Source: a virus (lineage: Duplodnaviria; Heunggongvirae; Uroviricota; Caudoviricetes). Taken from it: a stretch of 64,000 bases of DNA. The position numbers were made by a program, and so were the translations under genes. Each line of letters begins with the position of its first letter. The first letter of the stretch is position 1. The stretch lies in the IMG/VR virus record IMGVR_UViG_3300045836_000008; one strand, given 5' to 3'. The notes under the pieces are model-generated. The model was not told where the DNA came from. It saw only the letters and a list, made by a program, of their open reading frames with translations, and did no database searches. Below are positions 3,792 through 42,113 of the stretch, piece by piece.

Positions 3792-3943
3792 TGGACCTGA
3801 TACAATACGCACTCGTTGCCGCGTGTGGGTTTGCGTTGTATCGCGAAGGCTTCAAACGCGGCGCACGTCAAGTCCTTGAAAAACTGGCAGAGATGGGTGT
3901 TGTGCAGTTGCAACAACCTGAACAAGACGAAGAAAACAGTTGA
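3767..3943 (+). CDS. small hypothetical membrane protein (58 aa, one predicted TM)
   Basis: ATG-initiated ORF overlapping the end of the previous gene with a hydrophobic LIQYALVAACGFALY segment. Below the 60-aa ORF-track cutoff. Confidence 0.3.
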   Translation: MYENIFSVMDLIQYALVAACGFALYREGFKRGARQVLEKLAEMGVVQLQQPEQDEENS

Positions 3944-4039: not shown

Positions 4040-4112
4040 GGGTCGGTAGTTTATCTGGCTAAAACGGCGGACTCCAAACCCGCAGTGCAAGGTTCAAGTC
4101 CTTGTCGGCCCG
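4040..4112 (+). tRNA. tRNA, anticodon CCA (tRNA-Trp)
   Basis: Manual cloverleaf: acceptor GGGTCGG/TCGGCCC (two G-U pairs), U8, D-stem GTTT/AAAC with GG in the D-loop, anticodon loop CTCCAAA (U33, CCA, A37), T-arm CAAGG-TTCAAGT-CCTTG, discriminator G, encoded CCA at 4113-4115. One A-C mismatch at 31-39. Confidence 0.6.
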
Positions 4113-4167
4113 CCACATACTTGACCGCCAAGAGCGCGGAACTAAAACCTGAAGAGAAGTAGAGAAG

Positions 4168-4488: not shown

Positions 4489-4977
4489 ATGCACGCAGAC
4501 AACCTGAAAGCCCTTCTTTTCGCACAACTTGACGCTTGCGAAGACGCCACAACCCTTCGCACGCTGGTGAAGATCGCTGACGAAGTGATCGAGCATCAAG
4601 GCAACGAACTCAACGCTGCACACGAAGTGTTCGAAATCCTGACGGGCCAACTTGCCGAACTCGGTGATGACGCCGACCGCTACCAACTGCTGAAGCGCAT
4701 CATCGGTGACATGCTGGTTGTCGCGGCATATACCGGCGCACAGGCCGGTCACAAGGCCGTCGAAGCCTTCAAGAAGTTCGATGTCGCTTTGCTCGATTCG
4801 ACGCTGGACAACCTGATCGAAGCTGGTCTTCTCGATGAACTCGAAGAGCGCGAGACGGCCCAAGCAGCGGCAGATGCCGGTGTCGAACTCGATGATGAAC
4901 CGGTCGGTTATGCCGCAGCCGGTCCCGCATACCGCGACGAACTTCTGCCGCAAGGCGTGCTGTCGGACGAGTATTGA
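4489..4977 (+). CDS. hypothetical acidic protein
   Basis: 162-aa ORF with coding-like composition. No motif recognised. Confidence 0.5.
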   Translation: MHADNLKALLFAQLDACEDATTLRTLVKIADEVIEHQGNELNAAHEVFEILTGQLAELGDDADRYQLLKRIIGDMLVVAAYTGAQAGHKAVEAFKKFDVALLDSTLDNLIEAGLLDELEERETAQAAADAGVELDDEPVGYAAAGPAYRDELLPQGVLSDEY

Positions 4978-8444: not shown

Positions 8445-8621
8445 ATGGAATACGACATCAAGACGTTCCGCCAGTTCTGTGAAGATGGCGGCGCAGCCGG
8501 TGCAGCAAGTGGTGTAGCGGCAAACAGTACGGGTACGGCAGTGGCCGGAACTGGTGATGATAAATCTACTGTAGTGGTTAAGAAGAAACCAACAATCATC
8601 ACAAGGACCAAACCCGAATGA
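8445..8621 (+). CDS. small hypothetical protein (58 aa)
   Basis: ATG-initiated, in frame with the long track ORF 8178-8621. Stop overlaps the next start (GAATGA). Confidence 0.35.
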   Translation: MEYDIKTFRQFCEDGGAAGAASGVAANSTGTAVAGTGDDKSTVVVKKKPTIITRTKPE

Positions 8622-13722: not shown

Positions 13723-13994
13723 AAAAGCTGATCGCATCCCTTTCGATTTGCGCGGCGCTGGCCGCGTGCGGTACTGCACCGCCAAAGCCAGAACTTGCGC
13801 CTATCGCGACACCGGCTGACCTGACCCGTCAGTGCCCGGACCTGCAACACATCGACTCACAAGCAACACTCGGTACGGCGATGACCTACATCACCGACCT
13901 TCAGAAGCAGTACACCGTCTGTGCCACGCGCAATGACTCCCTTCGTGAAGTGACAACCCCTGTGCAACAAACGTCCACTTCACAAGGCAAGTGA
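13719..13994 (+). CDS. outer-membrane lipoprotein spanin (Rz1-like o-spanin)
   Basis: Lipoprotein signal with lipobox LAAC-G, Pro-rich mature part. Start overlaps the i-spanin stop. Confidence 0.6.
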   Translation: MKKLIASLSICAALAACGTAPPKPELAPIATPADLTRQCPDLQHIDSQATLGTAMTYITDLQKQYTVCATRNDSLREVTTPVQQTSTSQGK

Positions 13995-15016
13995 TGGCAA
14001 CACCGAACATTCAAAAGAAGACAGACAGTCTCATTACGCAGTACCCCGAAGTAGAACAGTTCACGAAGAAGCAACTCTCTATCTTCTGGCTTCCTGATGA
14101 ACCCAAGGTCGAAAAGGACGTGCAGGATGTCTTGGTCAACATGACTAAGGCTGAAAAGCATGGCGTCACGACGACCCTGAAGCTGTTCACGAAGTACGAA
14201 CTGAAGGCCGGTGCTGAATACTGGTCTGGACGCTTCAAACGGCGCTTCCCGCGCCCCGAATTTCAAGAGATGGCATCCACGTTCGCCATGTTCGAACTGG
14301 CCGTCCACAAGCGCTTCTATCAGCGCATCAACGAACTGACGTTCCTTCACACGGACGAGTTCTATAACAGCTACACCGAAGACCCTATCCTGAAAGCACG
14401 GATGGACTTCATTGACGAAATCATCTCGGACAAAGACGACTTGGTTTCGCTCGCAGGGTTCGCATTGGTTGAAGGCGCGATCCTGTACACATCGTTCGCA
14501 TTCCTGAAGCACTTCCAGCAGCAAGGCAAGAACAAGCTGCTGAACGTGGTACGTGGCATCAACTTCAGTGTGCGTGACGAGAACCTTCACTCGCTGGCCG
14601 GTGCATGGGTCTTCCTGAAGTTGCTGGAAGAACTGAACCCCGATCCCGAGTATCGCGCGAAGCTGAAGGAACGCATCTTCGCGATGGCACGTGCGCTGTA
14701 TGAACACGAATGTCGCATCGTGGACATGATCTTCGAAGAAGGCAACATCCCCGGCATCACCGCCCACCAGTTGAAGAACTTCGCGATGTCGCGGATCAAC
14801 GAAGTGCTGGCGAATCTGGGCTTCGAGAAGCTTGAAAAGGTCGAGTACAACCCGATTGCTGAATGGTTCTACAAGGCCATCAACAGCTACACCTTCAACG
14901 ACTTCTTCAGCGGCATGGGTGCGCAGTATCACCGCGATTGGGACGAAGACGCCTTCGTGTGGAAAACAAAAGCAGTACGAGAAGCAGAAGAAGCAGAACA
15001 ACAGGTGCAAGCATGA
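13994..15016 (+). CDS. nrdB: ribonucleotide reductase class I beta (R2) subunit
   Basis: Ferritin-like diiron ligands (FALVEGAILYTSF, VRDENLHS, E..H pairs) and a radical Tyr region. C-terminal tail reaches the nrdA start. Confidence 0.85.
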   Translation: MATPNIQKKTDSLITQYPEVEQFTKKQLSIFWLPDEPKVEKDVQDVLVNMTKAEKHGVTTTLKLFTKYELKAGAEYWSGRFKRRFPRPEFQEMASTFAMFELAVHKRFYQRINELTFLHTDEFYNSYTEDPILKARMDFIDEIISDKDDLVSLAGFALVEGAILYTSFAFLKHFQQQGKNKLLNVVRGINFSVRDENLHSLAGAWVFLKLLEELNPDPEYRAKLKERIFAMARALYEHECRIVDMIFEEGNIPGITAHQLKNFAMSRINEVLANLGFEKLEKVEYNPIAEWFYKAINSYTFNDFFSGMGAQYHRDWDEDAFVWKTKAVREAEEAEQQVQA

Positions 15017-16710
15017 GTACGAACATCTACGAACAACTAAGCGAAGAGCGCAAAGAACTTCAAGCGCAAGGTCTTGTGCCCGAGTGGTACACGACTGCCG
15101 GTTGGCAGATGTTCAAAGACAAGTACATGTACGAGACGACGCATGTACGCGGTCAGTTCCAACGTATCGCTGACACGGCTGCTTCGCATCTCCCGGAGAC
15201 GATGCAACCGCTGGCCCGCGAGAAGTTCATGTGGCTTCTGTGGGACGGCATCCTGTCACCATCGACGCCTGTTCTCGCGAACACTGGCACGAATCGCGGC
15301 ATGTCCGTTTCGTGTTCGGGCGGCAAGATCGGTGATTCGGTCTACGACTTCTACAAGCACAAGCTTGAAGTCGCAATGCTGACGAAGAACGGGTTCGGCA
15401 CATCTGGCTATCTCGGTGGTATCCGTCCGCGTGGTTCGAAGATCAGCACTGGCGGCAAAGCGTCTGGCGTTCTCGATGTCTTCACTGGCATCATTGACGA
15501 CATGCGCAAGATCGCACAAGGCACGGCACGTCGCGGTGCATACGCGGGCTACCTTGAAGCAGACCACGGCGACTTTGATGAAGTGTGCGACTTCATCTAC
15601 AACAACCCCGACGACGCCAATATCGGTTGGGTCATCACCGACGAGTTCATCGACCGTCTTGAACAAGGTGATGCAGATACGCACCGTCGCTTCCGCAAGA
15701 TGCTGAAGCTGAAGATGGTACATGGTAAGGGCTACTTCTTCTTCGTGGACAAGGCGAACCGCCATCGTCCCGAGATGTATGTGAAGCACAACCTGTTCAT
15801 CAACAACAGCAACCTGTGCAGCGAAATCATGCTGTTCAACGATGAAGACCATACGTTCACGTGTGTGCTTTCTTCGATGAACGTGGCGAAGTACGACGAG
15901 TGGAAAGACACTGACGCGGTGTATTGGGCGACGATCTTCTTGGATTGTATTGCCGAAGACTTCATCAAGAAGGCACGCAACGTCCCCGGTCTTGAAGCTG
16001 CTGTCCGGTTCACTGAAAAGGGTCGTGCGCTTGGTCTAGGCCAGTGCGGTTTCCACACCTACCTTCAGCAAAACATGATCGCCTTCGAGTCCTTCGAAGC
16101 GCACATGAAGAACCTTGAAATCGCGAAGCACATCCACGACGAAAGTCTGCGTGCGTCGCAGTTCATGGCAGTCGAACTTGGTGAACCGGAATGGTGTAAG
16201 GGCTTCGGCGTTCGCAATACTCACCGTATCGCAATCGCGCCCACGAAGTCCACGGCGAACCTGATGGGCGGTGTGTCCGAAGGTATCAACCCGGACCCGG
16301 CATACGTCTACACGGCGTCTGGTGCAGCCGGTGAGATGGACCGCATCAACCCGGTGCTTCTGAAGCTGATGAAGGAACGTGGCGTCTATAACAAGCGCAC
16401 CGTTGCCGACATCGCAGACAAGCAGGGTTCCGTGCAGCACGTCACGTGGCTGAATGACGAAGAGAAGAAAGTCTTCAAGACCGCCTTCGAAATCGACATG
16501 ATGGCCGTGATCCGCATGGCATCCGCGCGTGGCCGTTACGTTGACCAGTGGCAGTCAGTGAACCTGTTCTTTGCTGCTGAAGAAGACGAAGCGTACATCG
16601 CGTACATCCACCAACAAGCCTTCCTTGACCCGAACATGCTGGCGCTGTACTACATCTACACGCAAGCCGGTGTGCAAGCCGCCAAGGGCGAATGCGAAGC
16701 GTGCCAGTAA
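15013..16710 (+). CDS. nrdA: ribonucleotide reductase class I alpha (R1) subunit, short form without N-terminal ATP-cone
   Basis: Active-site NxCSEI (NSNLCSEIML), C-terminal CEAC redox pair. ATG at 15013 overlaps the nrdB stop. 565 aa. Confidence 0.85.
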   Translation: MSTNIYEQLSEERKELQAQGLVPEWYTTAGWQMFKDKYMYETTHVRGQFQRIADTAASHLPETMQPLAREKFMWLLWDGILSPSTPVLANTGTNRGMSVSCSGGKIGDSVYDFYKHKLEVAMLTKNGFGTSGYLGGIRPRGSKISTGGKASGVLDVFTGIIDDMRKIAQGTARRGAYAGYLEADHGDFDEVCDFIYNNPDDANIGWVITDEFIDRLEQGDADTHRRFRKMLKLKMVHGKGYFFFVDKANRHRPEMYVKHNLFINNSNLCSEIMLFNDEDHTFTCVLSSMNVAKYDEWKDTDAVYWATIFLDCIAEDFIKKARNVPGLEAAVRFTEKGRALGLGQCGFHTYLQQNMIAFESFEAHMKNLEIAKHIHDESLRASQFMAVELGEPEWCKGFGVRNTHRIAIAPTKSTANLMGGVSEGINPDPAYVYTASGAAGEMDRINPVLLKLMKERGVYNKRTVADIADKQGSVQHVTWLNDEEKKVFKTAFEIDMMAVIRMASARGRYVDQWQSVNLFFAAEEDEAYIAYIHQQAFLDPNMLALYYIYTQAGVQAAKGECEACQ

Positions 16711-28599: not shown

Positions 28600-28818
28600 A
28601 TGAGAGAAGAAGATATGTTGGACCTTCGCGAAGGTCTATGGGTGATCGTTGCACCGGCTGCTGGCCTGTCGCGTCACTCCATCTTCGCGAAGGTCCGTGG
28701 TATTGCGACCAACCCGCTTCCTGTGATCGGACGCAACGTCATCGTTGAACCTGAATTTCCGCTTGGCAAGTTTTCGTGCCACTCGGTGTTTGAACTGCAC
28801 CTGACACCCATCGAATGA
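28600..28818 (+). CDS. small hypothetical protein
   Basis: 72-aa ORF. Confidence 0.45.
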   Translation: MREEDMLDLREGLWVIVAPAAGLSRHSIFAKVRGIATNPLPVIGRNVIVEPEFPLGKFSCHSVFELHLTPIE

Positions 28819-29384
28819 ATTCTGTAGTCTGCTATCCGCCGCTGCGTCGCTGGAAGAAACCCGGCAATGTTGAACTGTCGGTGTTCCTTGCTGGAACTAT
28901 CGAGATGGGAAATTCCCACGACTGGCAGCAAGAGATGATCGACACGATTCAGGATCGGGCGTCCGTCATCTACAACCCGCGTCGCGCCGAATGGGACGCA
29001 TCATGGGTGCAGTCGATTCACGCCGTGCCGTTCAACAACCAAGTCAATTGGGAACTCGATTTCATCGAAGCTGCTGACCGCGTGTACATGTTTCTCGATC
29101 CCGCGTCGAAGTCGGTAATTTCGATGCTCGAATTGGGGTTCCTTGCCGCGTATGCACCTGATAAGCTATGGGTTTGCTGTCCCGATGGTTTCTGGCGCAA
29201 GGGCAACGTCGAAATCGTCTGCAATCGGTACGGCATCAAGCTGTACGAGTCCTTCAATGTGTTCAAGAACGCCGCACGGCTGGACCTTGAACGCGCCTAC
29301 GACAACTTCAAGATCAAAAAGGTGACAGATGAAGAAAGGCGAAGCCCTATCGAAGATGCTGCTGCTTGTCACGACCCGCTTTGA
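28815..29384 (+). CDS. nucleoside 2-deoxyribosyltransferase-like protein
   Basis: N-terminal VFLAGTIEMG (the NDT-family LAG motif) and a conserved acidic residue later. 189 aa. Confidence 0.5.
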   Translation: MNSVVCYPPLRRWKKPGNVELSVFLAGTIEMGNSHDWQQEMIDTIQDRASVIYNPRRAEWDASWVQSIHAVPFNNQVNWELDFIEAADRVYMFLDPASKSVISMLELGFLAAYAPDKLWVCCPDGFWRKGNVEIVCNRYGIKLYESFNVFKNAARLDLERAYDNFKIKKVTDEERRSPIEDAAACHDPL

Positions 29385-34753: not shown

Positions 34754-35278
34754 ATGAAGAATATCGCACTCATCGCCGCAATCGCCGCAGCATTCGCAAT
34801 CAACGCACAAGCAGCCGACTTCAGCGGCGCAGTGACCGGTTCGGCATCGGCCTACCAAGGCGCAATCACCGGTTCGGTCGGCAGCGTGTCGCAGGGCAAC
34901 GCCGTGACTTCGGCGGAAGTGGTCGGCAACGGCAGTTCGTACCAGTCGGCCCAGAACGTGACCGGTGGTACGGCGACGGTCGGCGGCACGATCAACGCCG
35001 CTGGCGCATCGGTCGGCACGCAGACGACGCAGTACAGCAACTCGGTCGTGGTCGGCAAGACTTCGGGCGACGCCCCGGCCATGTCGGGCAACAGCATCGT
35101 GAACGGCGGTTCGGCATTCGGCCAGACCAACACGACCGCGACCGGCAACGCGACGTTCGGCAGCGGCGCAATCGGCGGCACGCTCGCCATCGCTGGTGTC
35201 GGCAGCATCGGCCCGGTCGCGCCGATTGGCGGCACGGATAACGGTGTCGGCAACGGCGGTCAGAACCACGGCAAGTAA
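34754..35278 (+). CDS. Sec-secreted Gly/Ser/Thr/Gln/Asn-rich repeat protein
   Basis: Signal peptide MKNIALIAAIAAAFAINAQA|AD. Mature protein is low-complexity with quasi-repeats (SxxxQGxxxGxxxxxxQGN...). No Cys. Confidence 0.7.
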   Translation: MKNIALIAAIAAAFAINAQAADFSGAVTGSASAYQGAITGSVGSVSQGNAVTSAEVVGNGSSYQSAQNVTGGTATVGGTINAAGASVGTQTTQYSNSVVVGKTSGDAPAMSGNSIVNGGSAFGQTNTTATGNATFGSGAIGGTLAIAGVGSIGPVAPIGGTDNGVGNGGQNHGK

Positions 35279-35395
35279 GCCACGGCTGTCTGAGTAGTAC
35301 CTACATGAAGTAAGGGTCCGCGTCCAGCAGAGATGCGAGCGTTAGCCAGAAATCTACGCGGACCCGCAACACCTGAAATCGTTTTGGAGTCCTAT

Positions 35396-35917
35396 ATGAA
35401 AAAGATCATCGCCGCCGCACTGTTCTCGTTCGCAACCGTTTCCGCATTCGCACAAGTCAACGCATCGACAAACGCCACGACCAACAGTTCGTCCGGTGCG
35501 ACGAACCAAGGCGTCAACCAAGGCATCACGTTCAACAGCGCGGCGCAGCCGACCACGACGACCGTCAAGACGACCGGCAACGCTGTCGTGTCGGGTTTCG
35601 CGGGTTCGTTCTCGTCGGACTACTGCGGTGGAACCGCTGGTCTGGCTGTTGGCGGTCCCGGCTTCGCGGTCAGCGCGGGCGCACCCAAGATCGACCACGG
35701 CTGCACGCTGCTGCGTTCGTTCGAACGTCTGCAACAGGCCGCAGCATCGGACCCGGCTGACGCACCGGCACTGCACGCCGCAGCGCTCGATGTGCTGGCG
35801 GAAGTCGATCCGGCAGTCCGCAAGGCGCTGGAAAAGCACAAGCTGATCGCAGTCGCAGACGACAAGGTACGCGAAAATGACCAAGGCCAACTGGTGTACG
35901 CGAAAGCACAGCCCTGA
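35396..35917 (+). CDS. Sec-secreted protein: Asn/Thr/Ser-rich N-terminal region plus alpha-helical C-terminal domain
   Basis: Signal peptide MKKIIAAALFSFATVSAFA|QV and two Cys (CGG...HGC). Confidence 0.65.
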   Translation: MKKIIAAALFSFATVSAFAQVNASTNATTNSSSGATNQGVNQGITFNSAAQPTTTTVKTTGNAVVSGFAGSFSSDYCGGTAGLAVGGPGFAVSAGAPKIDHGCTLLRSFERLQQAAASDPADAPALHAAALDVLAEVDPAVRKALEKHKLIAVADDKVRENDQGQLVYAKAQP

Positions 35918-35919
35918 TG

Positions 35920-35968
35920 TTGACAGGGATTCCCAGACTTGATATAATGTTTGCTTCAAGTCTGGGAA
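35920..35968 (+). promoter_or_regulatory. family promoter TTGACA-gggattcccagacttga-TATAAT with a perfect 12-bp inverted repeat (TTCCCAGACTTG / CAAGTCTGGGAA) bracketing the -10
   Basis: Read directly. Confidence 0.65.
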
Positions 35969-35977
35969 CGCAGCAAG

Positions 35978-36139
35978 ATGAAGAAGAAAAAGAAGAACTT
36001 CAAGAATCACAAGAGCAACAAGATCGTGATCGAGTTCGAAACCACGAAGCCGCGAATTGGTGTGATCTTCACCAAAGTCGTGTCCAACAAAAACTTGAAG
36101 AAGCACAAGATCAAGCACAAGCACAAGGTTGTTGATTGA
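35978..36139 (+). CDS. small extremely Lys-rich basic protein (53 aa)
   Basis: MKKKKKNFKNHKSNKIVIEFETTKPRIGVIFTKVVSNKNLKKHKIKHKHKVVD. Low GC. The alternative-frame Glu/Gln-rich ORF 35917-36135 is the same sequence in another frame. Confidence 0.4.
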   Translation: MKKKKKNFKNHKSNKIVIEFETTKPRIGVIFTKVVSNKNLKKHKIKHKHKVVD

Positions 36140-36507
36140 AACCCCTGATACACGCAAAGATTTCGGTGAAGACCTATGGCGGCAAAGTGGAAGATTATCT
36201 GCCTATTCATAACTTCATTGATAGTAGTAAGTCTGCTCACCCAGACATCCGCCATCGCGCAATTCTGCATTCAGCTTTTGGATGCTTTATCGTTGAGCGC
36301 GTATTCGGGACTTACCTGACCAACAGTGACGGTAAGGATGTGTCCGTTCGCGACATCGCTGAAGAACACATTTTGCAGGACTTGGGATTCATTCCCACGA
36401 TGGAACAGTATTTGAACAACATGACGATTCAGCCGTGGATGTCCGGTACTGAGAAACGCAACAAGAGCGCAACAACGAAGTTCATATCATTAGACGATGC
36501 TGACTAA
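36136..36507 (+). CDS. hypothetical protein (low-GC island)
   Basis: 123-aa ORF, TTG start per the track. Confidence 0.45.
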   Translation: MKPLIHAKISVKTYGGKVEDYLPIHNFIDSSKSAHPDIRHRAILHSAFGCFIVERVFGTYLTNSDGKDVSVRDIAEEHILQDLGFIPTMEQYLNNMTIQPWMSGTEKRNKSATTKFISLDDAD

Positions 36508-36790
36508 AGAAGATGTAGACCAATGGTGTCGTGATCGCGGTTACACCGTCCACTCGCGTAGTGGTGACGGCAATATCCGCACGTACAGCAAGCACTTTGA
36601 CAAGTTCTTCCTGTCGATCACCGTGGACATCCAACGCCAAGACATGCAATTGCAAGCATTCCCCGGTCTGTTCACCCTTTCGACCGGAAACATGCAACTG
36701 TGTCATCCCAAGTTCGAAGACTTCTTCGAAAAACGTATGGTCCAGATGATGTCGGCCATCGAGAACGATTCCCCAACCCCGATTTTCTGA
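36497..36790 (+). CDS. hypothetical protein
   Basis: 97-aa ORF. Confidence 0.45.
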   Translation: MLTKEDVDQWCRDRGYTVHSRSGDGNIRTYSKHFDKFFLSITVDIQRQDMQLQAFPGLFTLSTGNMQLCHPKFEDFFEKRMVQMMSAIENDSPTPIF

Positions 36791-36793
36791 TTC

Positions 36794-37279
36794 ATGGCAA
36801 ACGCACTACAAGAACTGATCGCAGCACATGCAGCCGCCAAGGCTGAATTCAAGGCCAAGGCCGAAGCAGCGTTCAAGGTCGCAGTGAAGCAACTGTTCGA
36901 AGCTGTTCCCGACCTGACGATGATCCGATGGGTGCAGTACACGCCGTACTTCAACGATGGCGAAGAATGCGTGTTCAGCATGCGCGAACCGATCTTCACG
37001 AACGCCAACGAAGATGACCGCGAGTACATCACGTCCTACGGCGAATTCGACGGCGACATCGAAGACTGCACGACCGAAGGCATCTGGTTCTTCGGCCAGA
37101 ACGTCTACAGTTCGGAACCGAAGCCGACCGACCCGAAGGTGTACAAGCTACTTGACGAGTTCGATGACATGATGGCGACGGCAGAGTTCCAAGAACTTGC
37201 CCGCGACATGTTTGACGATCACGTTCAGGTCACGGTGACGCGCGCTGGCATCGACATCCAAGAATACGACCACGACTAA
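36794..37279 (+). CDS. hypothetical acidic protein
   Basis: 161-aa ORF. Confidence 0.5.
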   Translation: MANALQELIAAHAAAKAEFKAKAEAAFKVAVKQLFEAVPDLTMIRWVQYTPYFNDGEECVFSMREPIFTNANEDDREYITSYGEFDGDIEDCTTEGIWFFGQNVYSSEPKPTDPKVYKLLDEFDDMMATAEFQELARDMFDDHVQVTVTRAGIDIQEYDHD

Positions 37280-37289
37280 CAGGTAGAAC

Positions 37290-37601
37290 ATGGACACGGT
37301 AGAAGAGAAGAAGGTTAGCAGTACGAAGCTTGTGGTTATCGACACGCAGAAGCGTGTGGCGCATAGCTACGTTGGCACGTACAAGTGTGGCGAAGCGCAT
37401 CTGCCCGACCCGAACGAAGATGACTACACGGCAGTCGAAATGACGGAACAGTTGAGTGCGTTCCTTCATGCTGCTGATGAAGCCCGCTACCGTGCCATTG
37501 CTGCAAAAGAACTGGCCGAGAAGAACGGCAAGGCGATGGTAGAAGCCACGAAGGAATACGATGCGTGGTTTGAACGTCTGGTTCGCAAGTCCCCGGTCTA
37601 A
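37290..37601 (+). CDS. hypothetical protein
   Basis: 103-aa ORF. Confidence 0.5.
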   Translation: MDTVEEKKVSSTKLVVIDTQKRVAHSYVGTYKCGEAHLPDPNEDDYTAVEMTEQLSAFLHAADEARYRAIAAKELAEKNGKAMVEATKEYDAWFERLVRKSPV

Positions 37602-37628
37602 ACGAAGTAGAACAAGAAGAGAGTGAAG

Positions 37629-38741
37629 ATGAAGCAATATGATGTCGTGGTGTACCGTGGGCGCTTTCAAGGAATGCACGAAGCGCACCTGAAGACTATT
37701 CTGATGGGTCTGCAACTCGCCAAGAAGGTCGTCGTGGTCATCGGTAGTGCGAACGAACCGCGCACCTACTACCGCAACCCGTTCTTCGAGAACGAACGTA
37801 TCGAGATGATCCGTGCGGCACTGGCCGATCACTTCCGGCACGATGACGTGGTATTCACGACCGTCGAAGATCATCCCGACGACAACGTATGGGCTGAAAT
37901 GGTCGCAGAGAACGTGCAAATAATGATCGATGCACTAGACCACGAAGGCGCATTTGGTGACAAGCTGAATCGTCTGCGCATCGGTCAGATTGGCTACAAG
38001 AAGGACGACAATTGCGTTCGTGACGTGGACCTGTTCCCGCAGTGGGAATACATCGATACGCCGCACTTCGAACCGCTCGATGCCACGAAGGTCCGCGAAA
38101 TCTACTTCAGCAAGACGCCGCTGACGTACCTGATGGGTGTGTGCCCCGCACCTGTAATCCGATGGCTGTCCGACTTCCGTGCAACGGAAGCGTTCGACCT
38201 GATGATGCAGGAAAAGGAATACTGCGACAACTACAAGAAGCAGTTCGAACATCTCGAATATGCGCCTACGTTCGTGACTGGTGACAACGTGCCGTTCCAA
38301 GACGACACGATCCTTCTGGTGAAGCGCAAGAACCATCCGGGCAAGGGTCTGTGGGCTTTCGCTGCTGGCTTCTTCAACGCTGCTGACCGTCTGACCAAGA
38401 ACGGCGAACTGGTCAAGGCCGACAAGTCCGTGTTCGACTGCGCCGTTCGTGAACTGTTCGAAGAGACGAACGCGAGTCTCACGAAAGAAGAACTGAAAGA
38501 AGCGTGCATCGCTGAAGGTCTGTTCGACGCAGAAGGTCGCGATCCGCGTGGCCGCATCGTGACGCAAGCATATGTCTACAACTTCGACGGTCGTGAAGTC
38601 TTCTCGGTCGAAGCATCGGACGATGCAGAAGAAGTGCGCCGCTTCCACATCTCGGAAGTGAATCGCCGCATGATGTATGCCGACCACTACAGCATCTTCT
38701 TGCAAGCGCTCGAATCCTATCGCAATTCGAAGTACAACTGA
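37629..38741 (+). CDS. nadM: bifunctional nicotinamide-mononucleotide adenylyltransferase / Nudix hydrolase (NadM-Nudix)
   Basis: N-terminal cytidylyltransferase-fold motif YRGRFQGMHEAH (the HxGH variant) and C-terminal Nudix box (GKGLWAFAAG...AVRELFEETNASL). Confidence 0.8.
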   Translation: MKQYDVVVYRGRFQGMHEAHLKTILMGLQLAKKVVVVIGSANEPRTYYRNPFFENERIEMIRAALADHFRHDDVVFTTVEDHPDDNVWAEMVAENVQIMIDALDHEGAFGDKLNRLRIGQIGYKKDDNCVRDVDLFPQWEYIDTPHFEPLDATKVREIYFSKTPLTYLMGVCPAPVIRWLSDFRATEAFDLMMQEKEYCDNYKKQFEHLEYAPTFVTGDNVPFQDDTILLVKRKNHPGKGLWAFAAGFFNAADRLTKNGELVKADKSVFDCAVRELFEETNASLTKEELKEACIAEGLFDAEGRDPRGRIVTQAYVYNFDGREVFSVEASDDAEEVRRFHISEVNRRMMYADHYSIFLQALESYRNSKYN

Positions 38742-38766
38742 AAACTCTCTACAGGAATCAAACCAC

Positions 38767-40128
38767 ATGCTGCAAACGAAAAACATCCAACTGTCGCAAA
38801 ACTTCGTTCTCGAATCGGATTCGTACAAGTTCAGCCACAACCCGGAAATCTACCCGGAAGGCGCAGAAGCGCTGCACTCGTATCTGTCGGCCCGCGTGAA
38901 GGGTTCGCGCGTGGTGCAGTTCGGCCTTCAGATGTGGATCAAGAAGAAGCTGCTGGCCCCGATCACGCTCGCGATGATCGATGAAGCCGAAGACTTCATC
39001 ACTCGTCACATCGGCCCCGGTGGTTTCGACCGTGGCTTCTGGGAACACATCCTGCACACGTACAACGGCTACATCCCGCTGGTGATCCGTGGTCTGCCGG
39101 AAGGCACTGTGACCGACAGCTACGACACGCTGGTGACGGTTGACTGTTTCGACCCGCGCGTGTTCCCGCTGGCGCAGCACATCGAAGCATCGCTGCAATC
39201 TGACCTGTGGTACAGCACGACCATCGCGACGAACGATCTGGAAAACTACGAAGTCGCGAAGTCGCACTTCGATCTGTTCTCGGACAACCCGGTTCTTCTC
39301 GCGTTCATGCTTCACGACTTCGGCGCACGCGGTGTGACCTGTGAAGAACAACGCCAGATTGGCGGCGCAGCGCACCTGATCTTCTTCCAAGGTTCGGACA
39401 CGATCAGCGGCATCCGTGCGGCAAACCTGTTCTACAACTGCGAGATGGCCGCGTATTCGGTTCGCGCCACGGAACATAGCATCCAGTGCGCCTACGGCCC
39501 CGAAGGGCAAGAAGAGTACATCCGGCGCGTCCTGAAGGCACATGCGAAACCGGGCAACATCGTGTCGCTGGTTCTCGACGGCTACAACGTGTGGCGCGAA
39601 GCCGAACTTCTCTGCACGAAGTTCAAAGACCAAATCATCGAAAGCGGCGCGAAGATCGTCTTCCGTCCCGATTCGGGTGACATGTTCGAAGTGGTTCCGC
39701 GCATTCTCGAAATGCAAGCGCAACACTTCGGCTTCACCGTGAACTCGAAGGGCAAGAAGGTCATCAACAACGTTGGTGTCATCCAAGGTGACGGCATCGA
39801 CAAGATCACGTTCATGCTGCTGATGCAGAAGGTCGTGGCCCTTGGCTATGCCCCTGAATGCGTCGTGATGGGTTCCGGTGGCGGTTTGCTTCAGAAGGTC
39901 AACCGTGACACGCTGAAGTTCGCGCAGAAGGCCGCAGCCATCAAGATCAATGGTGTCTGGGTTGACATGTTCAAAGACCCGATCACCGATCCGGGCAAGA
40001 AGTCGAAGACCGGTCGTCAAGACGATCCGCGCTTCGTCACGTTCTACGACCACGGCGAACTGTTGGTCGATGAATCGCTCGACGTGATCCGGGCACGTGC
40101 GCTCGAAGGCGCAAAAATTCGCAAGTAA
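38767..40128 (+). CDS. nadV: nicotinamide phosphoribosyltransferase (NadV/NAMPT)
   Basis: 454 aa. Family-typical segments (SDSYKFSH, GARGV, QGDGI, VMGSGGGLLQK). Adjacent to nadM as in KVP40-type phages. Confidence 0.85.
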   Translation: MLQTKNIQLSQNFVLESDSYKFSHNPEIYPEGAEALHSYLSARVKGSRVVQFGLQMWIKKKLLAPITLAMIDEAEDFITRHIGPGGFDRGFWEHILHTYNGYIPLVIRGLPEGTVTDSYDTLVTVDCFDPRVFPLAQHIEASLQSDLWYSTTIATNDLENYEVAKSHFDLFSDNPVLLAFMLHDFGARGVTCEEQRQIGGAAHLIFFQGSDTISGIRAANLFYNCEMAAYSVRATEHSIQCAYGPEGQEEYIRRVLKAHAKPGNIVSLVLDGYNVWREAELLCTKFKDQIIESGAKIVFRPDSGDMFEVVPRILEMQAQHFGFTVNSKGKKVINNVGVIQGDGIDKITFMLLMQKVVALGYAPECVVMGSGGGLLQKVNRDTLKFAQKAAAIKINGVWVDMFKDPITDPGKKSKTGRQDDPRFVTFYDHGELLVDESLDVIRARALEGAKIRK

Positions 40129-40141
40129 TCCCAAGTCTGGG

Positions 40142-40190
40142 TTGACGTAACACGAACCGACAGGTATGATATGCCTGTCGGTTTCTTTTT
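40142..40190 (+). promoter_or_regulatory. promoter TTGACG-17-TATGAT whose -10 lies in the loop of a terminator hairpin (ACCGACAGG-UAUGAUAU-CCUGUCGGU + UUCUUUUU). An upstream CCCAAGTCTGGG half-site palindrome abuts the -35
   Basis: Read directly. Combined terminator for nadV and promoter for the next gene. Confidence 0.6.
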
Positions 40191-40202
40191 GGAGTGAATC
40201 AC

Positions 40203-40493
40203 ATGGCTACTACATTCGAAGAAATCGTGAAGTTCATGTCGGGACTCACGATCAATACGGACCACGGCGTTATCATCAAGACTGCGACCGGCGAACATCG
40301 GGTCGTGATCCGCATCCCGGCGCGTGGTTATCCGCGCGTGGTGATGAAGGGTACGAACGGGCTACTGGTCGTCTACCGCCTGAAGGGCAACGTGTTGGAG
40401 AAATTAGGGTACAAGGGTACGGTCTACAGCGTCGCAGAGTTCGACAAGCTGGCGGCAAACCCGGTAGCAACAATCGAGTGGCATTCCCGGTAA
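40203..40493 (+). CDS. hypothetical protein
   Basis: ATG after GGAGTGAATCAC. Confidence 0.5.
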   Translation: MATTFEEIVKFMSGLTINTDHGVIIKTATGEHRVVIRIPARGYPRVVMKGTNGLLVVYRLKGNVLEKLGYKGTVYSVAEFDKLAANPVATIEWHSR

Positions 40494-40499
40494 AAGTAG

Positions 40500-40528
40500 T
40501 TGACACGAATTCCCAAGGTCGGTATAAT
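40500..40528 (+). promoter_or_regulatory. family promoter TTGACA-cgaattcccaaggtcgg-TATAAT
   Basis: Leader TCTCTTCATCGGTTGGACATCACTAGGAG. Confidence 0.65.
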
Positions 40529-40563
40529 TCTCTTCATCGGTTGGACATCACTAGGAGCGAAAC

Positions 40564-40809
40564 ATGACCAAGTTTGCTGAATGGTTCAAGACCTTCAACG
40601 AAGAAAAGGGCATCGACCCGGAAACCAACATCGAAGTTGAAGGGCCGAGTGGCACGAACTTCATGACGTTGCAGAACGTGTTCGACGCAATCCTGTCCAC
40701 GTCCGAAGCCGAACAGGCCGCGATCAAGACGATGATCGTCAAGATCGACTTCCGCAACGGCGACGTGGTTGACTACTACAAGCATCTGGCAAAGGCCATC
40801 GCGCAATGA
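40564..40809 (+). CDS. hypothetical protein
   Basis: 81-aa ORF. Confidence 0.5.
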   Translation: MTKFAEWFKTFNEEKGIDPETNIEVEGPSGTNFMTLQNVFDAILSTSEAEQAAIKTMIVKIDFRNGDVVDYYKHLAKAIAQ

Positions 40810-40982
40810 CGACTCTCGTCAACGGCAAGATTCCGGCGAACACCGTGTGTCCCTATCGGGCACGGTGTCCGTTCGCAGAGAAAGGCACCTGTCATCACAA
40901 GGGTGTCGATCACAACTGTGCGTTTTCGTGTGGTGCAGCCCGCGCATACGCCATCATCGACCGGTCCCCGGTCTGCAACTAA
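40806..40982 (+). CDS. small Cys/His-rich putative zinc-binding protein (58 aa)
   Basis: MTTLVNGKIPANTVCPYRARCPFAEKGTCHHKGVDHNCAFSCG... ATG overlaps the upstream stop (ATGA). Preferred over the Ser/Arg-rich alternative frame 40769-41002. Confidence 0.4.
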   Translation: MTTLVNGKIPANTVCPYRARCPFAEKGTCHHKGVDHNCAFSCGAARAYAIIDRSPVCN

Positions 40983-41030
40983 GCAGTATTTCCCAAACCT
41001 GAAGTAGAAATCTAAAGGAAGTAGAAAAGA

Positions 41031-42113
41031 ATGAAGAAGTGGCTTTTGGGTCTTGTACTCGCAGTCTCGTCGGCAGTCGCATTCGCACTCCCGTCCCCGC
41101 ATCAAATCGAAGACGCACTCGCAACGCAGCACTACAGCGATGCTCGTTCGATGGTCCAACAGGTACTTGAAGAGAAGCCGGATTCCGCCCGCGCTCACCT
41201 TCTCGATGCCTACATCCTGATCCACGTCGATCACAACAAGCAAGCCGCATCGCAAGAACTCGACAACGCGCGCCGTCTCGACAAGAAGGGCGATGTCGCC
41301 AACAGTCCGTTGTTCGGTCGCACCGCAGCCGAAATCGACATGACGAAGGCATCGGCCAAGCCCGCACCGGCACAACAGCAAGCGCAACCGGCGCAAGTCG
41401 TCGTGCAAGACGGTACGCAGTTCCAGCCGCAGCCGAAGCATGAAGGCCATCCGTTCCTGACCTTCCTGTTGTTCGCAGCGATCATCGGCTTGATCGGCTA
41501 CATCCTGTACCTGATCTTCCGCCGACCGCGTGTCGTCGTGCAAGAGCGTCATGTCTACCATGCGCCGACCTATGACACCGGCAGTGTCGCAAGCGCCCCG
41601 GCCATCTCGGTTTCGTCGGCCCCGCGTGTGACTTCCACGGTGGTTGAACGCCAAGTCGTCGGCAGTGCCTACGTGTCGCCTTCCCCGGCCCCGGTCATCA
41701 TCAACAACGGCGGTGGTTATGGTCGCGGTTACGGCAACGATGGCTTCGTTGAAGGCATGTTGATCGGTGAGATGATGGAAGAGAACCGCGAGACTCGCCG
41801 CGAACTCGATGCAGACCGCTACGAACGTCGCCGTGAACGCGACAGCTACAGTTCGTCGTCTTCGTCCAGCTACGACGCATCGCCTTCGAGTTCGGAACCT
41901 TCCACGTCCTACGCATCCGACCGTCAGTCGTTCTCGTCGGGCAGCGACGATAGCTGGTCCAGCCGCAGCAGTTCGTCGTATAGCTCGTCATCGTCGGATT
42001 CGTCGTCAAGCTGGTCGTCGGGTTCTTCGTCGTCGGACTACAGTTCGTCCAGCTACGACAGCGGTTCGTCGTCATCGTGGGACAGCGGCAGTTCGTCGGG
42101 TAGCGACTGGTAA
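41031..42113 (+). CDS. membrane protein: signal/TM, TPR-like helical region, a second TM, and an extreme Ser-rich C-terminal low-complexity tail
   Basis: N-terminal hydrophobic LGLVLAVSSAVAFA, internal TM FLTFLLFAAIIGLIGYILYLIF, C-terminal 100 aa about 60% Ser with W/Y/D punctuation (SSSSWSSGSSSSDYSSSSYDSGSSSSWDSGSSSGSDW). Confidence 0.65.
   Translation: MKKWLLGLVLAVSSAVAFALPSPHQIEDALATQHYSDARSMVQQVLEEKPDSARAHLLDAYILIHVDHNKQAASQELDNARRLDKKGDVANSPLFGRTAAEIDMTKASAKPAPAQQQAQPAQVVVQDGTQFQPQPKHEGHPFLTFLLFAAIIGLIGYILYLIFRRPRVVVQERHVYHAPTYDTGSVASAPAISVSSAPRVTSTVVERQVVGSAYVSPSPAPVIINNGGGYGRGYGNDGFVEGMLIGEMMEENRETRRELDADRYERRRERDSYSSSSSSSYDASPSSSEPSTSYASDRQSFSSGSDDSWSSRSSSSYSSSSSDSSSSWSSGSSSSDYSSSSYDSGSSSSWDSGSSSGSDW

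What the first reader, a model, noticed from the sequence alone, without database searches (positions are those of the whole stretch)
37629..40128. NadM-Nudix plus NadV: phage-encoded NAD+ salvage pair (NARP2-type counter-defence)
Adjacent genes encode a bifunctional NMN adenylyltransferase/Nudix hydrolase and a nicotinamide phosphoribosyltransferase. Together they rebuild NAD+ from nicotinamide. The same pair is known in KVP40-like phages and was recently shown, as the NAD+ reconstitution pathway 2, to overcome NAD+-depleting defences (Thoeris, DSR, SIR2-HerA, some CBASS effectors). Its presence indicates that this phage's hosts deploy NADase-based immunity. The Nudix domain may additionally hydrolyse ADP-ribose.
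Basis: partly seen in the sequence, partly recalled or inferred. Interest (0 to 1): 0.7.

Follow-up and report, generated by a model that had tools for sequence, protein, structure and literature searches.

The report
Phage NAD+ salvage gene pair (NARP2-type)
An uncultured T4-like phage carries two adjacent, intact genes that together should rebuild the cofactor NAD+ from nicotinamide. This is a known phage trick against NAD+-destroying bacterial defences, so the find is a solid but ordinary new example.

Summary

- **nadM (37629-38741, +)** encodes a 370-aa two-domain NadM-type protein: an NMN adenylyltransferase fused to a Nudix hydrolase.
- **nadV (38767-40128, +)** encodes a 453-aa nicotinamide phosphoribosyltransferase.
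- **Function looks intact.** All checked catalytic residues are present, and both genes are under purifying selection (dN/dS 0.08-0.28).
- **Conservation.** The pair is syntenic in related ~170-kb metagenomic phage contigs.
- **Pathway type.** The transferase groups with KVP40 NadV (the NARP2 enzyme). It does not group with the Adps-linked Namat enzymes of NARP1. No PRPS-like gene was found in the window.
- **Expression.** The pair ends a six-gene unit between a perfect sigma-70 consensus promoter (35920-35948) and a strong hairpin terminator (40154-40184). This suggests early expression.

- In the papers I read, NARP2 was tested against type I Thoeris, DSR2 and aRES. SIR2-HerA and CBASS are extrapolations.
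- In KVP40 the two genes lie 43 kb apart, not side by side.
- What the host's immunity looks like cannot be tested here.

Departures from the norm are small: an HxAH motif in place of HxGH, and an 11-residue hairpin inserted in the Nudix box. This is a new member of a known kind.

The parts
35920..35948 (+). Perfect sigma-70 consensus promoter (TTGACA-17-TATAAT with an extended TG). Likely early promoter of the unit that ends with nadM-nadV.
   Evidence: scores it 12/12. It belongs to a promoter family with 9 hits at up to 1 mismatch in the window against 0.11 expected, 8 of them on the coding strand, sharing a TTCCCA spacer motif. The equivalent perfect promoter is conserved in relative L003 at 4730-4758. 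Function is inferred.
36136..37601 (+). Four small co-oriented genes between the promoter and nadM: 36136-36507 (DUF6915), 36497-36790, 36794-37279 (phrog_9564) and 37290-37601. Function unknown. They are context, with no shown link to NAD+ metabolism.
   Evidence: ORFs. DUF6915 matches at E 6.8e-43. PHROG families of unknown function appear. The same block precedes nadM in L001, L003, L005 and L014.
37629..38741 (+). nadM (natV-like): bifunctional NMN adenylyltransferase (about residues 1-205) fused to a Nudix ADP-ribose pyrophosphatase-type domain (about residues 212-357). 370 aa.
   Evidence: Family and PDB matches. The AF2 model has pLDDT 89.2 and pTM 0.83. Foldseek's top hits are 2r5w, 2qjt and 2qjo, with TM 0.79-0.90. 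Invariant residues are G11, R12, H17, H20, R156, R274, E275, E278 and E279. Identity to KVP40 NatV is 29%, E 3e-33. dN/dS is 0.16-0.28.
38385..38417 (+). Lineage-specific 11-residue insertion (D253-K263, DRLTKNGELVK) inside the Nudix box, between the conserved Gly and the Nudix helix.
   Evidence: Alignment A1 shows it in P0001-P0018 and in P0022 and P0023. It is absent from P0019-P0021, P0024-P0025 and the NCBI-genome relatives aligned (P0028, P0038, P0059, P0063, P0106). It is also absent from the PDB proteins 2qjo and 2qjt and from KVP40 NatV. The model folds it as a small beta-hairpin (strands 254-255 and 261-262) with block pLDDT 84-91.
38767..40128 (+). nadV: nicotinamide phosphoribosyltransferase (Nampt), 453 aa.
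   Evidence: Family and PDB matches. The 14 checked positions (human numbering) are Y18, F193, R196, D219, H247, R311, D313, G353, D354, G383, G384, R392, K415 and K423, all conserved. Identity to KVP40 NadV is 32%, E 4e-71. The protein is on the Nampt side of the tree. dN/dS is 0.08-0.20.
40154..40184 (+). Intrinsic-terminator-like hairpin (14-bp stem, 3-nt loop, then TTTCTTTTT), 26 nt after the nadV stop. Likely end of the transcription unit.
   Evidence: Found. The RNA fold is -25.4 kcal/mol, z = -3.1, and 0 of 200 shuffles fold as well. An equivalent 15-bp hairpin follows nadV in L003 at 8532-8567.

Best explanation
The two genes form a phage-encoded two-enzyme NAD+ salvage pathway of the NARP2 type.

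Proposed steps:
1. NadV (Nampt) condenses nicotinamide with host PRPP to give NMN.
2. The N-terminal domain of NadM (Nmnat) adenylylates NMN with ATP to give NAD+.
3. The C-terminal Nudix domain most likely hydrolyses ADP-ribose (and possibly NAD(H)) to AMP plus ribose-5-phosphate. Host Prs can turn ribose-5-phosphate back into PRPP. Both NADase products, nicotinamide and ADPR, would then be recycled.

The pair appears to be transcribed early from a host-type sigma-70 promoter, as the last two genes of a six-gene unit. The likely benefit is keeping NAD+ available during infection. That includes hosts whose defences (TIR, SIR2, SEFIR or RES NADases) deplete NAD+.

Shown here: gene identity, fold, intact catalytic residues, Nampt-clade placement, purifying selection, conserved synteny, and promoter and terminator signals.

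Inferred from characterised homologues: enzyme activities, timing of expression, and the counter-defence role.
For: Family, PDB and fold matches:
- NadM.
- NadV.

Catalytic residues:
- NadM keeps R12, H17, H20 and R156. I infer from motif position that these match R11, H16, H19 and R136 of the archaeal NMNATs, whose mutant structures appear.
- NadM keeps the Nudix REUXEE core, R274 to E279.
- NadV keeps all 14 checked NAMPT positions.

Pathway type:
- NadV is on the KVP40/Nampt side. The Adps-adjacent Namat clade is separate in 40 of 40 bootstraps. At two positions (G384, K423) the window matches KVP40 and not Namat.
- Direct BLASTP to the experimentally characterised KVP40 NadV gives E 4e-71, and to NatV E 3e-33.

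Conservation:
- dN/dS is 0.08-0.28.
- The pair and its flanks are conserved in 168-177-kb phage contigs.
- More distant phage-like contigs keep the nadM..nadV order.

Expression and context:
- Promoter and terminator bracket the unit in the window and in L003.
- No PRPS/Adps, NadR or PnuC was found among window ORFs of 200 aa or more or in the precomputed Pfam of L014.

Literature:
- KVP40 Nampt plus Nmnat make NAD+ and abolish type I Thoeris and DSR2 defence (10.1101/2024.02.11.579819).
- The same pair cancels aRES defence (10.64898/2026.01.28.702374).
- Every NadM-encoding phage surveyed also has NadV (PMC9503650).
Against: - No biochemical or infection data exist for these proteins.
- Identity to the tested KVP40 enzymes is only 29-32%.
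- NadM scores well below NCBIfam's equivalog cut-offs (226 against 397 bits).
- NadM has HxAH instead of HxGH. It has Asp-Lys where the first Nudix-box Glu normally sits, and an 11-residue insertion in the Nudix box. Nudix substrate preference in particular could differ.
- The host and its defences are unknown.
- NARP2 produces NAD+ regardless of defence, so a general metabolic role is not excluded.
- Only 64 kb of a ~172.5-kb genome was examined for Adps or other NAD+ genes.
Confidence: 0.78

Rival explanations
1. The enzymes are the same, but the selected role is general metabolic support, not counter-defence. They would raise the NAD+ pool for phage nucleotide metabolism and replication, or replace NAD+ used by phage enzymes.
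For: NARP2 raises NAD+ even in cells without a defence system. The genes sit in a nucleotide-metabolism-rich early region with RNR, Thy1, NT5C, PhoH and a Nuc_deoxyri_tr2 protein. No defence or anti-defence gene was recognised next to the pair.
Against: The KVP40 pair demonstrably cancels Thoeris, DSR2 and aRES. It is costly and toxic, which argues for strong selective benefit. The phage's DNA ligase is the ATP-dependent type, so ligation creates no obvious extra NAD+ demand. The two roles are not mutually exclusive.
Confidence: 0.3
2. The transferase is a NARP1-type Namat. It would use ADPR-pyrophosphate and nicotinamide to make NAD+ directly, with NadM as an accessory.
For: Namat and Nampt are homologous, and both are annotated 'nicotinamide phosphoribosyltransferase' in phage records. 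KVP40 Nampt shows weak activity on ADPR-PP in vitro.
Against: There is no PRPS-like Adps next to it or anywhere in the window, whereas all four NARP1 reference loci have one directly upstream. The window protein is outside the Adps-adjacent clade in 40 of 40 bootstraps, and it carries G384 and K423 like KVP40 and human NAMPT. It passes the NCBIfam PRK09198 cut-off. It is paired with an Nmnat, the NARP2 signature.
Confidence: 0.03
3. The Nudix domain of NadM is not an ADP-ribose pyrophosphatase. It could be inactive or regulatory, as in the ligand-sensing Nudix domain of NrtR. Alternatively its altered Nudix box could give it a different substrate.
For: The Nudix box is non-canonical. Asp265-Lys266 replaces the first Glu, and an 11-residue hairpin is inserted between the Gly and the helix. 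A weak NCBIfam match to the ADPR-responsive repressor NtrR (E 1.2e-8) and Foldseek hits to the NrtR Nudix domain show how close sensing and catalytic versions are.
Against: The metal-binding catalytic core R274-E275-L276-x-E278-E279 is invariant across the subfamily. The Asp-Lys/Arg replacement is also present in the more distant relatives aligned (P0019-P0021, P0028, P0038 and others). Those come from phage-like contigs too where checked. So it is a subfamily trait, not decay. Family-specific residues outside the box (F299, R304, R307-G308-R309, D331-D332-A333, D352-H353) are invariant. The whole protein superposes on ADPR- and AMP-bound NadM structures. dN/dS is 0.16-0.28. There is no DNA-binding domain.
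Confidence: 0.12
4. The transferase is specific for nicotinate (NAPRT/PncB-like), and the pair makes deamido-NAD.
For: NCBIfam names PRK09198 'nicotinate phosphoribosyltransferase', and several phage records use that label.
Against: The NAMPT-specific N-terminal domain PF18127 is present. The best solved relatives are all NAMPTs. Asp at the position of human D219 is conserved. From my own knowledge, unchecked here, that residue is the one usually credited with nicotinamide over nicotinate preference. The homologous KVP40 enzyme uses nicotinamide. No NAD synthetase (NadE) was seen in the window.
Confidence: 0.04

Closest known systems
Vibrio phage KVP40 NadV (KVP40.0264) + NatV (KVP40.0162): the experimentally defined NARP2 pathway
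   Same: Same two protein families and domain architectures: a Nampt, and an Nmnat fused to Nudix. Both are in T4-like phages. The window NadV groups with KVP40 NadV and not with Namat. BLASTP gives E 4e-71 for NadV and 3e-33 for NatV.
   Different: Identity is only 32% and 29%. The KVP40 genes are 43 kb apart, whereas here they are 25 nt apart in one apparent transcription unit. KVP40 NatV has the canonical HxGH motif (GRFRPFHNGH) and lacks the Nudix-box insertion.
Bacterial NadM bifunctional NMNAT/ADP-ribose pyrophosphatase (Synechocystis slr0787, PDB 2qjo; Francisella tularensis, PDB 2qjt and 2r5w)
   Same: Full-length two-domain match at E 9e-44 and 5.5e-41. The predicted fold superposes with TM 0.79-0.90. 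The nucleotidyltransferase and REUXEE motifs are shared.
   Different: About 29-30% identity. The window protein scores below NCBIfam's equivalog cut-offs. It has HxAH in place of HxGH, GRFQG in place of GRFQP, Asp-Lys in place of the first Nudix-box Glu, an 11-residue Nudix-box insertion, and a longer variable loop at residues ~98-117.
Adjacent nadM-nadV modules of isolated phages (Rhodobacter phage RcXuper, Xanthomonas phage LucasX, Stenotrophomonas DLP_6 and others)
   Same: Same gene order and strand, either adjacent or separated by one small ORF. These are the best matches in the isolate database.
   Different: Only 33-35% (NadM) and 39-43% (NadV) identity. They belong to unrelated phage types: large siphoviruses and jumbo phages, against a T4-like replication module here.
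NARP1 (Adps + Namat), e.g. Felixounavirus, Kayvirus, Pakpunavirus, Bromdenvirus
   Same: The transferase is a homologue at 29-32% identity. The outcome is the same: NAD+ is rebuilt during infection.
   Different: NARP1 pairs the transferase with a PRPS-like Adps directly upstream and uses ADPR-PP. Here there is no Adps but an Nmnat partner instead, and the transferase sits in the other clade.
NARP3 (PnuC + NadR-like), Escherichia phage TrudiRoth Bas30_86/87
   Same: A phage two-gene NAD+-restoring module that includes an NMNAT domain (PMC13464706).
   Different: NARP3 starts from imported nicotinamide riboside. Its NMNAT is fused to a ribosylnicotinamide kinase, not to Nudix, and it includes a transporter. 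Nothing of that kind was found in the window.

Membership tests
NARP2 (phage NAD+ reconstitution pathway 2) | The phosphoribosyltransferase belongs to the Nampt clade (KVP40 NadV-like), not the Adps-associated Namat clade. | tested here: met
   In an NJ tree of 14 sequences, the four Adps-adjacent proteins form a separate clade in 40 of 40 bootstraps, and the window protein sits on the KVP40 side. G384 and K423 match KVP40. PRK09198 is passed at 432.5 bits against a cut-off of 405. The sample is small and the method simple.
NARP2 (phage NAD+ reconstitution pathway 2) | An Nmnat homologue is encoded in the same phage genome. | tested here: met
   nadM lies 25 nt upstream on the same strand.
NARP2 (phage NAD+ reconstitution pathway 2) | No Adps (PRPS-like ADPR-pyrophosphate synthetase) partner. 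| tested here: inconclusive
   None is adjacent, and none was found among window ORFs of 200 aa or more or in the precomputed Pfam of the 21-kb identical locus L014. About 108 kb of the 172.5-kb genome was not available.
NARP2 (phage NAD+ reconstitution pathway 2) | Encoded by a phage. | tested here: met
   T4-like replication and recombination genes and a tail protein are in the window. The window is 100% identical over 21 kb to a 172,555-bp contig.
NARP2 (phage NAD+ reconstitution pathway 2) | Makes NAD+ from nicotinamide, PRPP and ATP, and rescues phage from NAD+-depleting defence. | not testable with these tools
   This needs enzyme assays and infection assays. It has been shown only for the KVP40 pair.
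NadM bifunctional NMNAT/Nudix (PRK05379) | N-terminal HIGH-superfamily nucleotidyltransferase with GRFQPxHxGH and a second SxTxxR-type motif. | tested here: met
   The window has G11-R12-F-Q-G-M-H17-E-A19-H20 and D-A-T-K-V-R156. R12, H17, H20 and R156 are invariant in A1. There is one variation: Ala replaces Gly in HxGH, in all 24 aligned subfamily members.
NadM bifunctional NMNAT/Nudix (PRK05379) | C-terminal Nudix domain with the Nudix box GX5EX7REUXEEXGU. | tested here: inconclusive
   The catalytic REUXEE core (R274, E275, L276, F277, E278, E279) is intact and invariant. The upstream half is non-canonical: Asp265-Lys266 replaces Glu, and there is an 11-residue insertion. Pfam NUDIX is passed at 42.4 bits against a cut-off of 21.1.
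NadM bifunctional NMNAT/Nudix (PRK05379) | Score above NCBIfam's equivalog cut-off. | tested here: not met
   The best score is 225.8 bits against a cut-off of 397, though it covers the full length at E 8.7e-67. By sequence and fold it is a divergent relative, not an NCBI 'equivalog'.
NadM bifunctional NMNAT/Nudix (PRK05379) | Two-domain fold of the solved NadM structures. | tested here: met
   The AF2 model has pLDDT 89.2. Foldseek matches 2qjo, 2qjt and 2r5w at E about 1e-33 and TM 0.79-0.90 over the whole chain.
NAMPT (NadV; PF18127 + PF04095; PRK09198) | NAMPT_N plus the type II PRTase barrel, above curated cut-offs. | tested here: met
   Pfam scores are 62.3 bits against 25, and 141.1 against 20.8. 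NCBIfam scores 432.5 against 405.
NAMPT (NadV; PF18127 + PF04095; PRK09198) | Active-site residues (human numbering): Y18, F193, R196, D219, H247, R311, D313, G353, D354, G383, G384, R392, K415, K423. | tested here: met
   All 14 are conserved in the window protein. See the alignments to human NAMPT 3dgr and to KVP40. The choice of residues comes from my knowledge of the NAMPT literature.

The most novel reading that the evidence does not exclude
The lineage-specific 11-residue beta-hairpin in the Nudix box (D253-K263) sits alongside the Asp-Lys replacement of the first Nudix Glu. Together they might retune the Nudix domain towards a substrate other than plain ADP-ribose. Candidates are ADPR-1''-phosphate made by RES-type NADases, or ADPR-derived immune signals such as Thoeris cyclic ADPR isomers. 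The single protein would then both rebuild NAD+ and destroy a defence product or signal.
Probability: 0.05. Interest if true: 0.6.

Novelty: new member of a known kind. Interest (0 to 1): 0.22.

Why it matters
The find adds a well-supported, divergent NARP2-type module to the record. It shares at most 43% identity with any isolated phage's version. It comes from an uncultured lineage of ~170-kb T4-like phages, where it is fixed and under purifying selection.

The apparent early sigma-70 transcription unit gives a concrete, testable expression context. The tight nadM-nadV operon would be convenient to clone as a compact NARP2 cassette.

It does not change what is known about phage NAD+ counter-defence. 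The pair was characterised in KVP40, catalogued across phages in 2022, and named NARP2 in 2024.

Tried and rejected
- **Megablast of 36000-42000 against isolated phages.** Only 48-60-nt chance-level matches came back, so there are no close relatives among isolates.
- **nadV start.** I first set it at 38764. Translation showed that codon is His, and the ATG is at 38767. Corrected. Searches used the 454-aa version with one extra N-terminal residue, which does not affect the results.
- **Neighbouring ORFs.** PHROG and Pfam scans of ten neighbours found only DUF6915 and families of unknown function. Nothing NAD-related or anti-defence was recognised.
- **Nearest NCBI-sourced homologues.** The listing of cluster members returned no organism names. 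Their contigs turned out to be phage-like, not bacterial, so no host or donor lineage could be inferred.
- **KVP40 35-80 kb.** Fetched on a guess, and it contained neither gene. The genes were then located through a protein search.
- **First bootstrap script.** It timed out and was rerun with a lighter distance model.
- **NARP1/Namat, nicotinate specificity and a dead Nudix domain.** Considered and rejected; see the rival explanations.
- **Not attempted:** host assignment by CRISPR spacers, a scan of the full 172.5-kb genome, and the large representative-protein search. None would have changed the verdict.
Full report
**1. What is at the coordinates**

Two ORFs lie on the + strand.

- nadM runs from ATG 37629 (an alternative GTG is at 37623) to the stop at 38741, giving 370 aa.
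- The second ORF opens at 38677, but its sensible start is ATG 38767. That is 25 nt after the first stop and is preceded by AGGA. It gives 453 aa ending at 40128.
- This is the same gene model as on a metagenomic contig that is 100% identical to window 28767-50128 (L014).

**2. Identity of the first gene (nadM)**

- Pfam finds CTP_transf_like plus NUDIX.
- Seven NCBIfam 'bifunctional NMN adenylyltransferase/Nudix' models match end to end (best E 8.7e-67). All fall below their equivalog cut-offs, 226 against 397 bits.
- The solved NadM proteins of Synechocystis (2qjo) and Francisella (2qjt) match at 9e-44 and 5.5e-41.
- An AlphaFold model built on 24 homologues is confident (pLDDT 89.2, pTM 0.83). 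Its best PDB matches are those same bifunctional NMNAT/ADP-ribose pyrophosphatases, over the whole chain, with TM 0.79-0.90.

Findings from the alignment of 24 relatives (A1):

- The nucleotidyltransferase residues G11, R12, H17, H20 and R156 are invariant. By motif position I infer that R12, H17, H20 and R156 correspond to R11, H16, H19 and R136 of the archaeal NMNATs, whose mutant structures appear.
- The catalytic Nudix core R274-E275-L276-x-E278-E279 is invariant.
- Every aligned member of this subfamily has HxAH instead of HxGH. Every member also has Asp-Lys/Arg where the first Nudix-box Glu normally sits.
- The window's own lineage, plus two other branches, carries an 11-residue insertion (D253-K263) inside the Nudix box. 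The model folds it as a small beta-hairpin just before the Nudix helix.

These are subfamily or lineage traits, not decay. dN/dS against three relatives is 0.16-0.28.

**3. Identity of the second gene (nadV)**

- Pfam finds NAMPT_N plus NAPRTase.
- NCBIfam PRK09198 is passed at 432.5 bits against a cut-off of 405.
- A bacterial NAMPT (7yqo) matches at 7e-95 and human NAMPT at about 1e-68.
- Fourteen active-site positions are all conserved. In human numbering they are Y18, F193, R196, D219, H247, R311, D313, G353, D354, G383, G384, R392, K415 and K423.
- dN/dS is 0.08-0.20.

**4. NARP2 or NARP1?**

The NARP1 enzyme Namat is a homologue of Nampt, and phage records give both the same product name.

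I fetched four NARP1-type loci: Felixounavirus, Kayvirus, Pakpunavirus and Bromdenvirus. Each has a PRPS-like gene directly upstream of the transferase. I also fetched KVP40's own nadV and natV and several nadM-linked loci.

- In an NJ tree, the four Adps-adjacent proteins form a separate clade in 40 of 40 bootstraps. The window protein lies on the KVP40 side.
- At two aligned positions (human G384 and K423) the window, KVP40 and most of the other nadM-linked proteins have Gly and Lys. One of them, the P0166 contig protein, has Asp at K423. The four Namat proteins have Ser and Ala or His.
- The window protein is 32% identical to KVP40 NadV (E 4e-71). NadM is 29% identical to KVP40 NatV (E 3e-33).
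- No PRPS-like, NadR or PnuC gene was found among window ORFs of 200 aa or more or in the precomputed Pfam of L014. Only 64 kb of a ~172.5-kb genome was visible.

**5. Context**

- **Phage type.** The window is from a T4-like phage. It holds a gp41-type helicase (best isolate matches are cyanomyoviruses at ~54% identity). It also holds primase, both RNR subunits, Thy1, a UvsX C-terminal domain, gp59, gp32, PhoH, ATP-dependent ligase and a tail protein.
- **Relatives.** No isolated phage is close. Close relatives exist only as 168-177-kb metagenomic contigs. There the nadM-nadV pair and its flanking genes are conserved, with NadM identity from 60% to 95%.
- **More distant homologues.** The next-nearest homologues of both proteins also sit in phage-like contigs with the same nadM..nadV order.
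- **Isolated phages.** Among isolates, NadV-family genes occur in 2015 records and NadM-Nudix genes in 464.

**6. Expression signals**

- A perfect TTGACA-17-TATAAT promoter with extended TG lies at 35920-35948.
- A 14-bp hairpin followed by a T-run lies at 40154-40184, 26 nt after nadV. Its fold is -25.4 kcal/mol, z = -3.1.
- Between them lie six co-oriented genes, the last two being nadM and nadV.
- The promoter belongs to a family with 9 near-perfect copies in the window against 0.11 expected. Eight are on the coding strand, and they share a TTCCCA spacer motif.
- The same promoter and terminator bracket the homologous unit in L003, whose NadM is only 60% identical.

Early, host-RNA-polymerase-driven expression is therefore a reasonable inference. 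It has not been shown.

**7. Mechanism proposed**

1. Nicotinamide plus PRPP gives NMN (NadV).
2. NMN plus ATP gives NAD+ (NadM N-terminal domain).
3. ADPR gives AMP plus ribose-5-phosphate (NadM Nudix domain). Host Prs can then feed ribose-5-phosphate back as PRPP.

The first two steps are those shown for the KVP40 homologues. The Nudix step rests on homology to the solved NadM ADP-ribose pyrophosphatases.

**8. Comparison with the literature**

- NadM plus NadV as a phage NAD+ salvage pair was catalogued in 2022 (PMC9503650).
- It was named NARP2 in 2024 (10.1101/2024.02.11.579819). There the KVP40 pair abolished type I Thoeris and DSR2 defence, and raised NAD+ even without a defence system.
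- A 2026 preprint shows that NARP2, unlike NARP1, also cancels aRES.
- In KVP40 the two genes are 43 kb apart. The adjacency here is like RcXuper and LucasX.

**9. Verdict**

This is a new, divergent member of a known kind.

The only unusual details are the HxAH motif and the Nudix-box insertion, and neither has known significance. The counter-defence role, the Nudix substrate and anything about the host remain inferences.

Noticed in passing
window 3940, 9396, 30014, 33065, 35920, 40500, 42163, 49188 (+) and 6994 (-): A family of near-perfect sigma-70 consensus promoters (TTGACA-N17-TATAAT). There are 9 hits at up to 1 mismatch against 0.11 expected, and most share a conserved spacer motif such as GAATTCCCAAG. 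This probably marks the phage's early promoters.
   Followed up: partly
window 9407, 30027, 35932, 35957, 40132 (exact) plus 7 one-mismatch sites: The 10-mer CAAGTCTGGG or its complement is over-represented, with 12 hits against 3.45 expected. It lies inside or beside promoter spacers. At 35932 and 35957 it forms an inverted repeat that brackets the -10 box of the promoter upstream of the NAD+ unit.
   Followed up: partly
window 40142-40184; L003 8522-8567: A promoter-like element (TTGACG-17-TATGAT) overlaps the terminator hairpin after nadV, with the -10 hexamer spanning the 5' stem arm and loop. The same overlap is conserved in the 60%-identity relative L003. It may be a combined terminator and promoter.
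   Followed up: no
between window 34576 and 34631; L001 and L002 2309-2911 (-): Relatives that are 98-99% identical carry an extra ~700-bp segment. It holds a 200-aa minus-strand ORF with a weak GIY-YIG hit, and it is absent from the window. This is probably a homing-endonuclease presence/absence polymorphism.
   Followed up: no
window 37920-37980 (NadM residues ~98-117): The loop after the long NMNAT helix is hypervariable in sequence and length, even between the window and its 95%-identical relative P0001 (IDALDHEGAFGDKLNRLRIG against IDALYQNGAVFN--YPARVG). Most of the differences between those two proteins are concentrated there.
   Followed up: no
window 41031-42113 (+): A 360-aa protein with a signal-peptide-like N-terminus, an internal hydrophobic segment and an extremely Ser-rich C-terminal tail. 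The window copy has no family hit. The homologue in L003 hits DUF2076 and, faintly, TPR.
   Followed up: no
window 34754-35278 and 35333-35917 (+): Two adjacent Gly/Ala/Thr/Asn-rich proteins with signal-peptide-like N-termini and no family matches. They lie just upstream of the promoter of the NAD+ unit.
   Followed up: no
window 28815-29384 (+): A nucleoside 2-deoxyribosyltransferase-like protein (PF15891, E 7.3e-29) in the same early region. It may be relevant to nucleotide or nucleoside handling.
   Followed up: no
window 13991-15016 and 14863-16710 (+): The RNR small-subunit ORF and the longest large-subunit ORF overlap by ~150 nt. The family match to the large subunit starts at residue 57-75, so its real start is probably near 15030-15080.
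   Followed up: no
window 4040-4115 (+): A single tRNA-Trp (CCA) gene, directly downstream of one of the consensus promoters at 3940.
   Followed up: no
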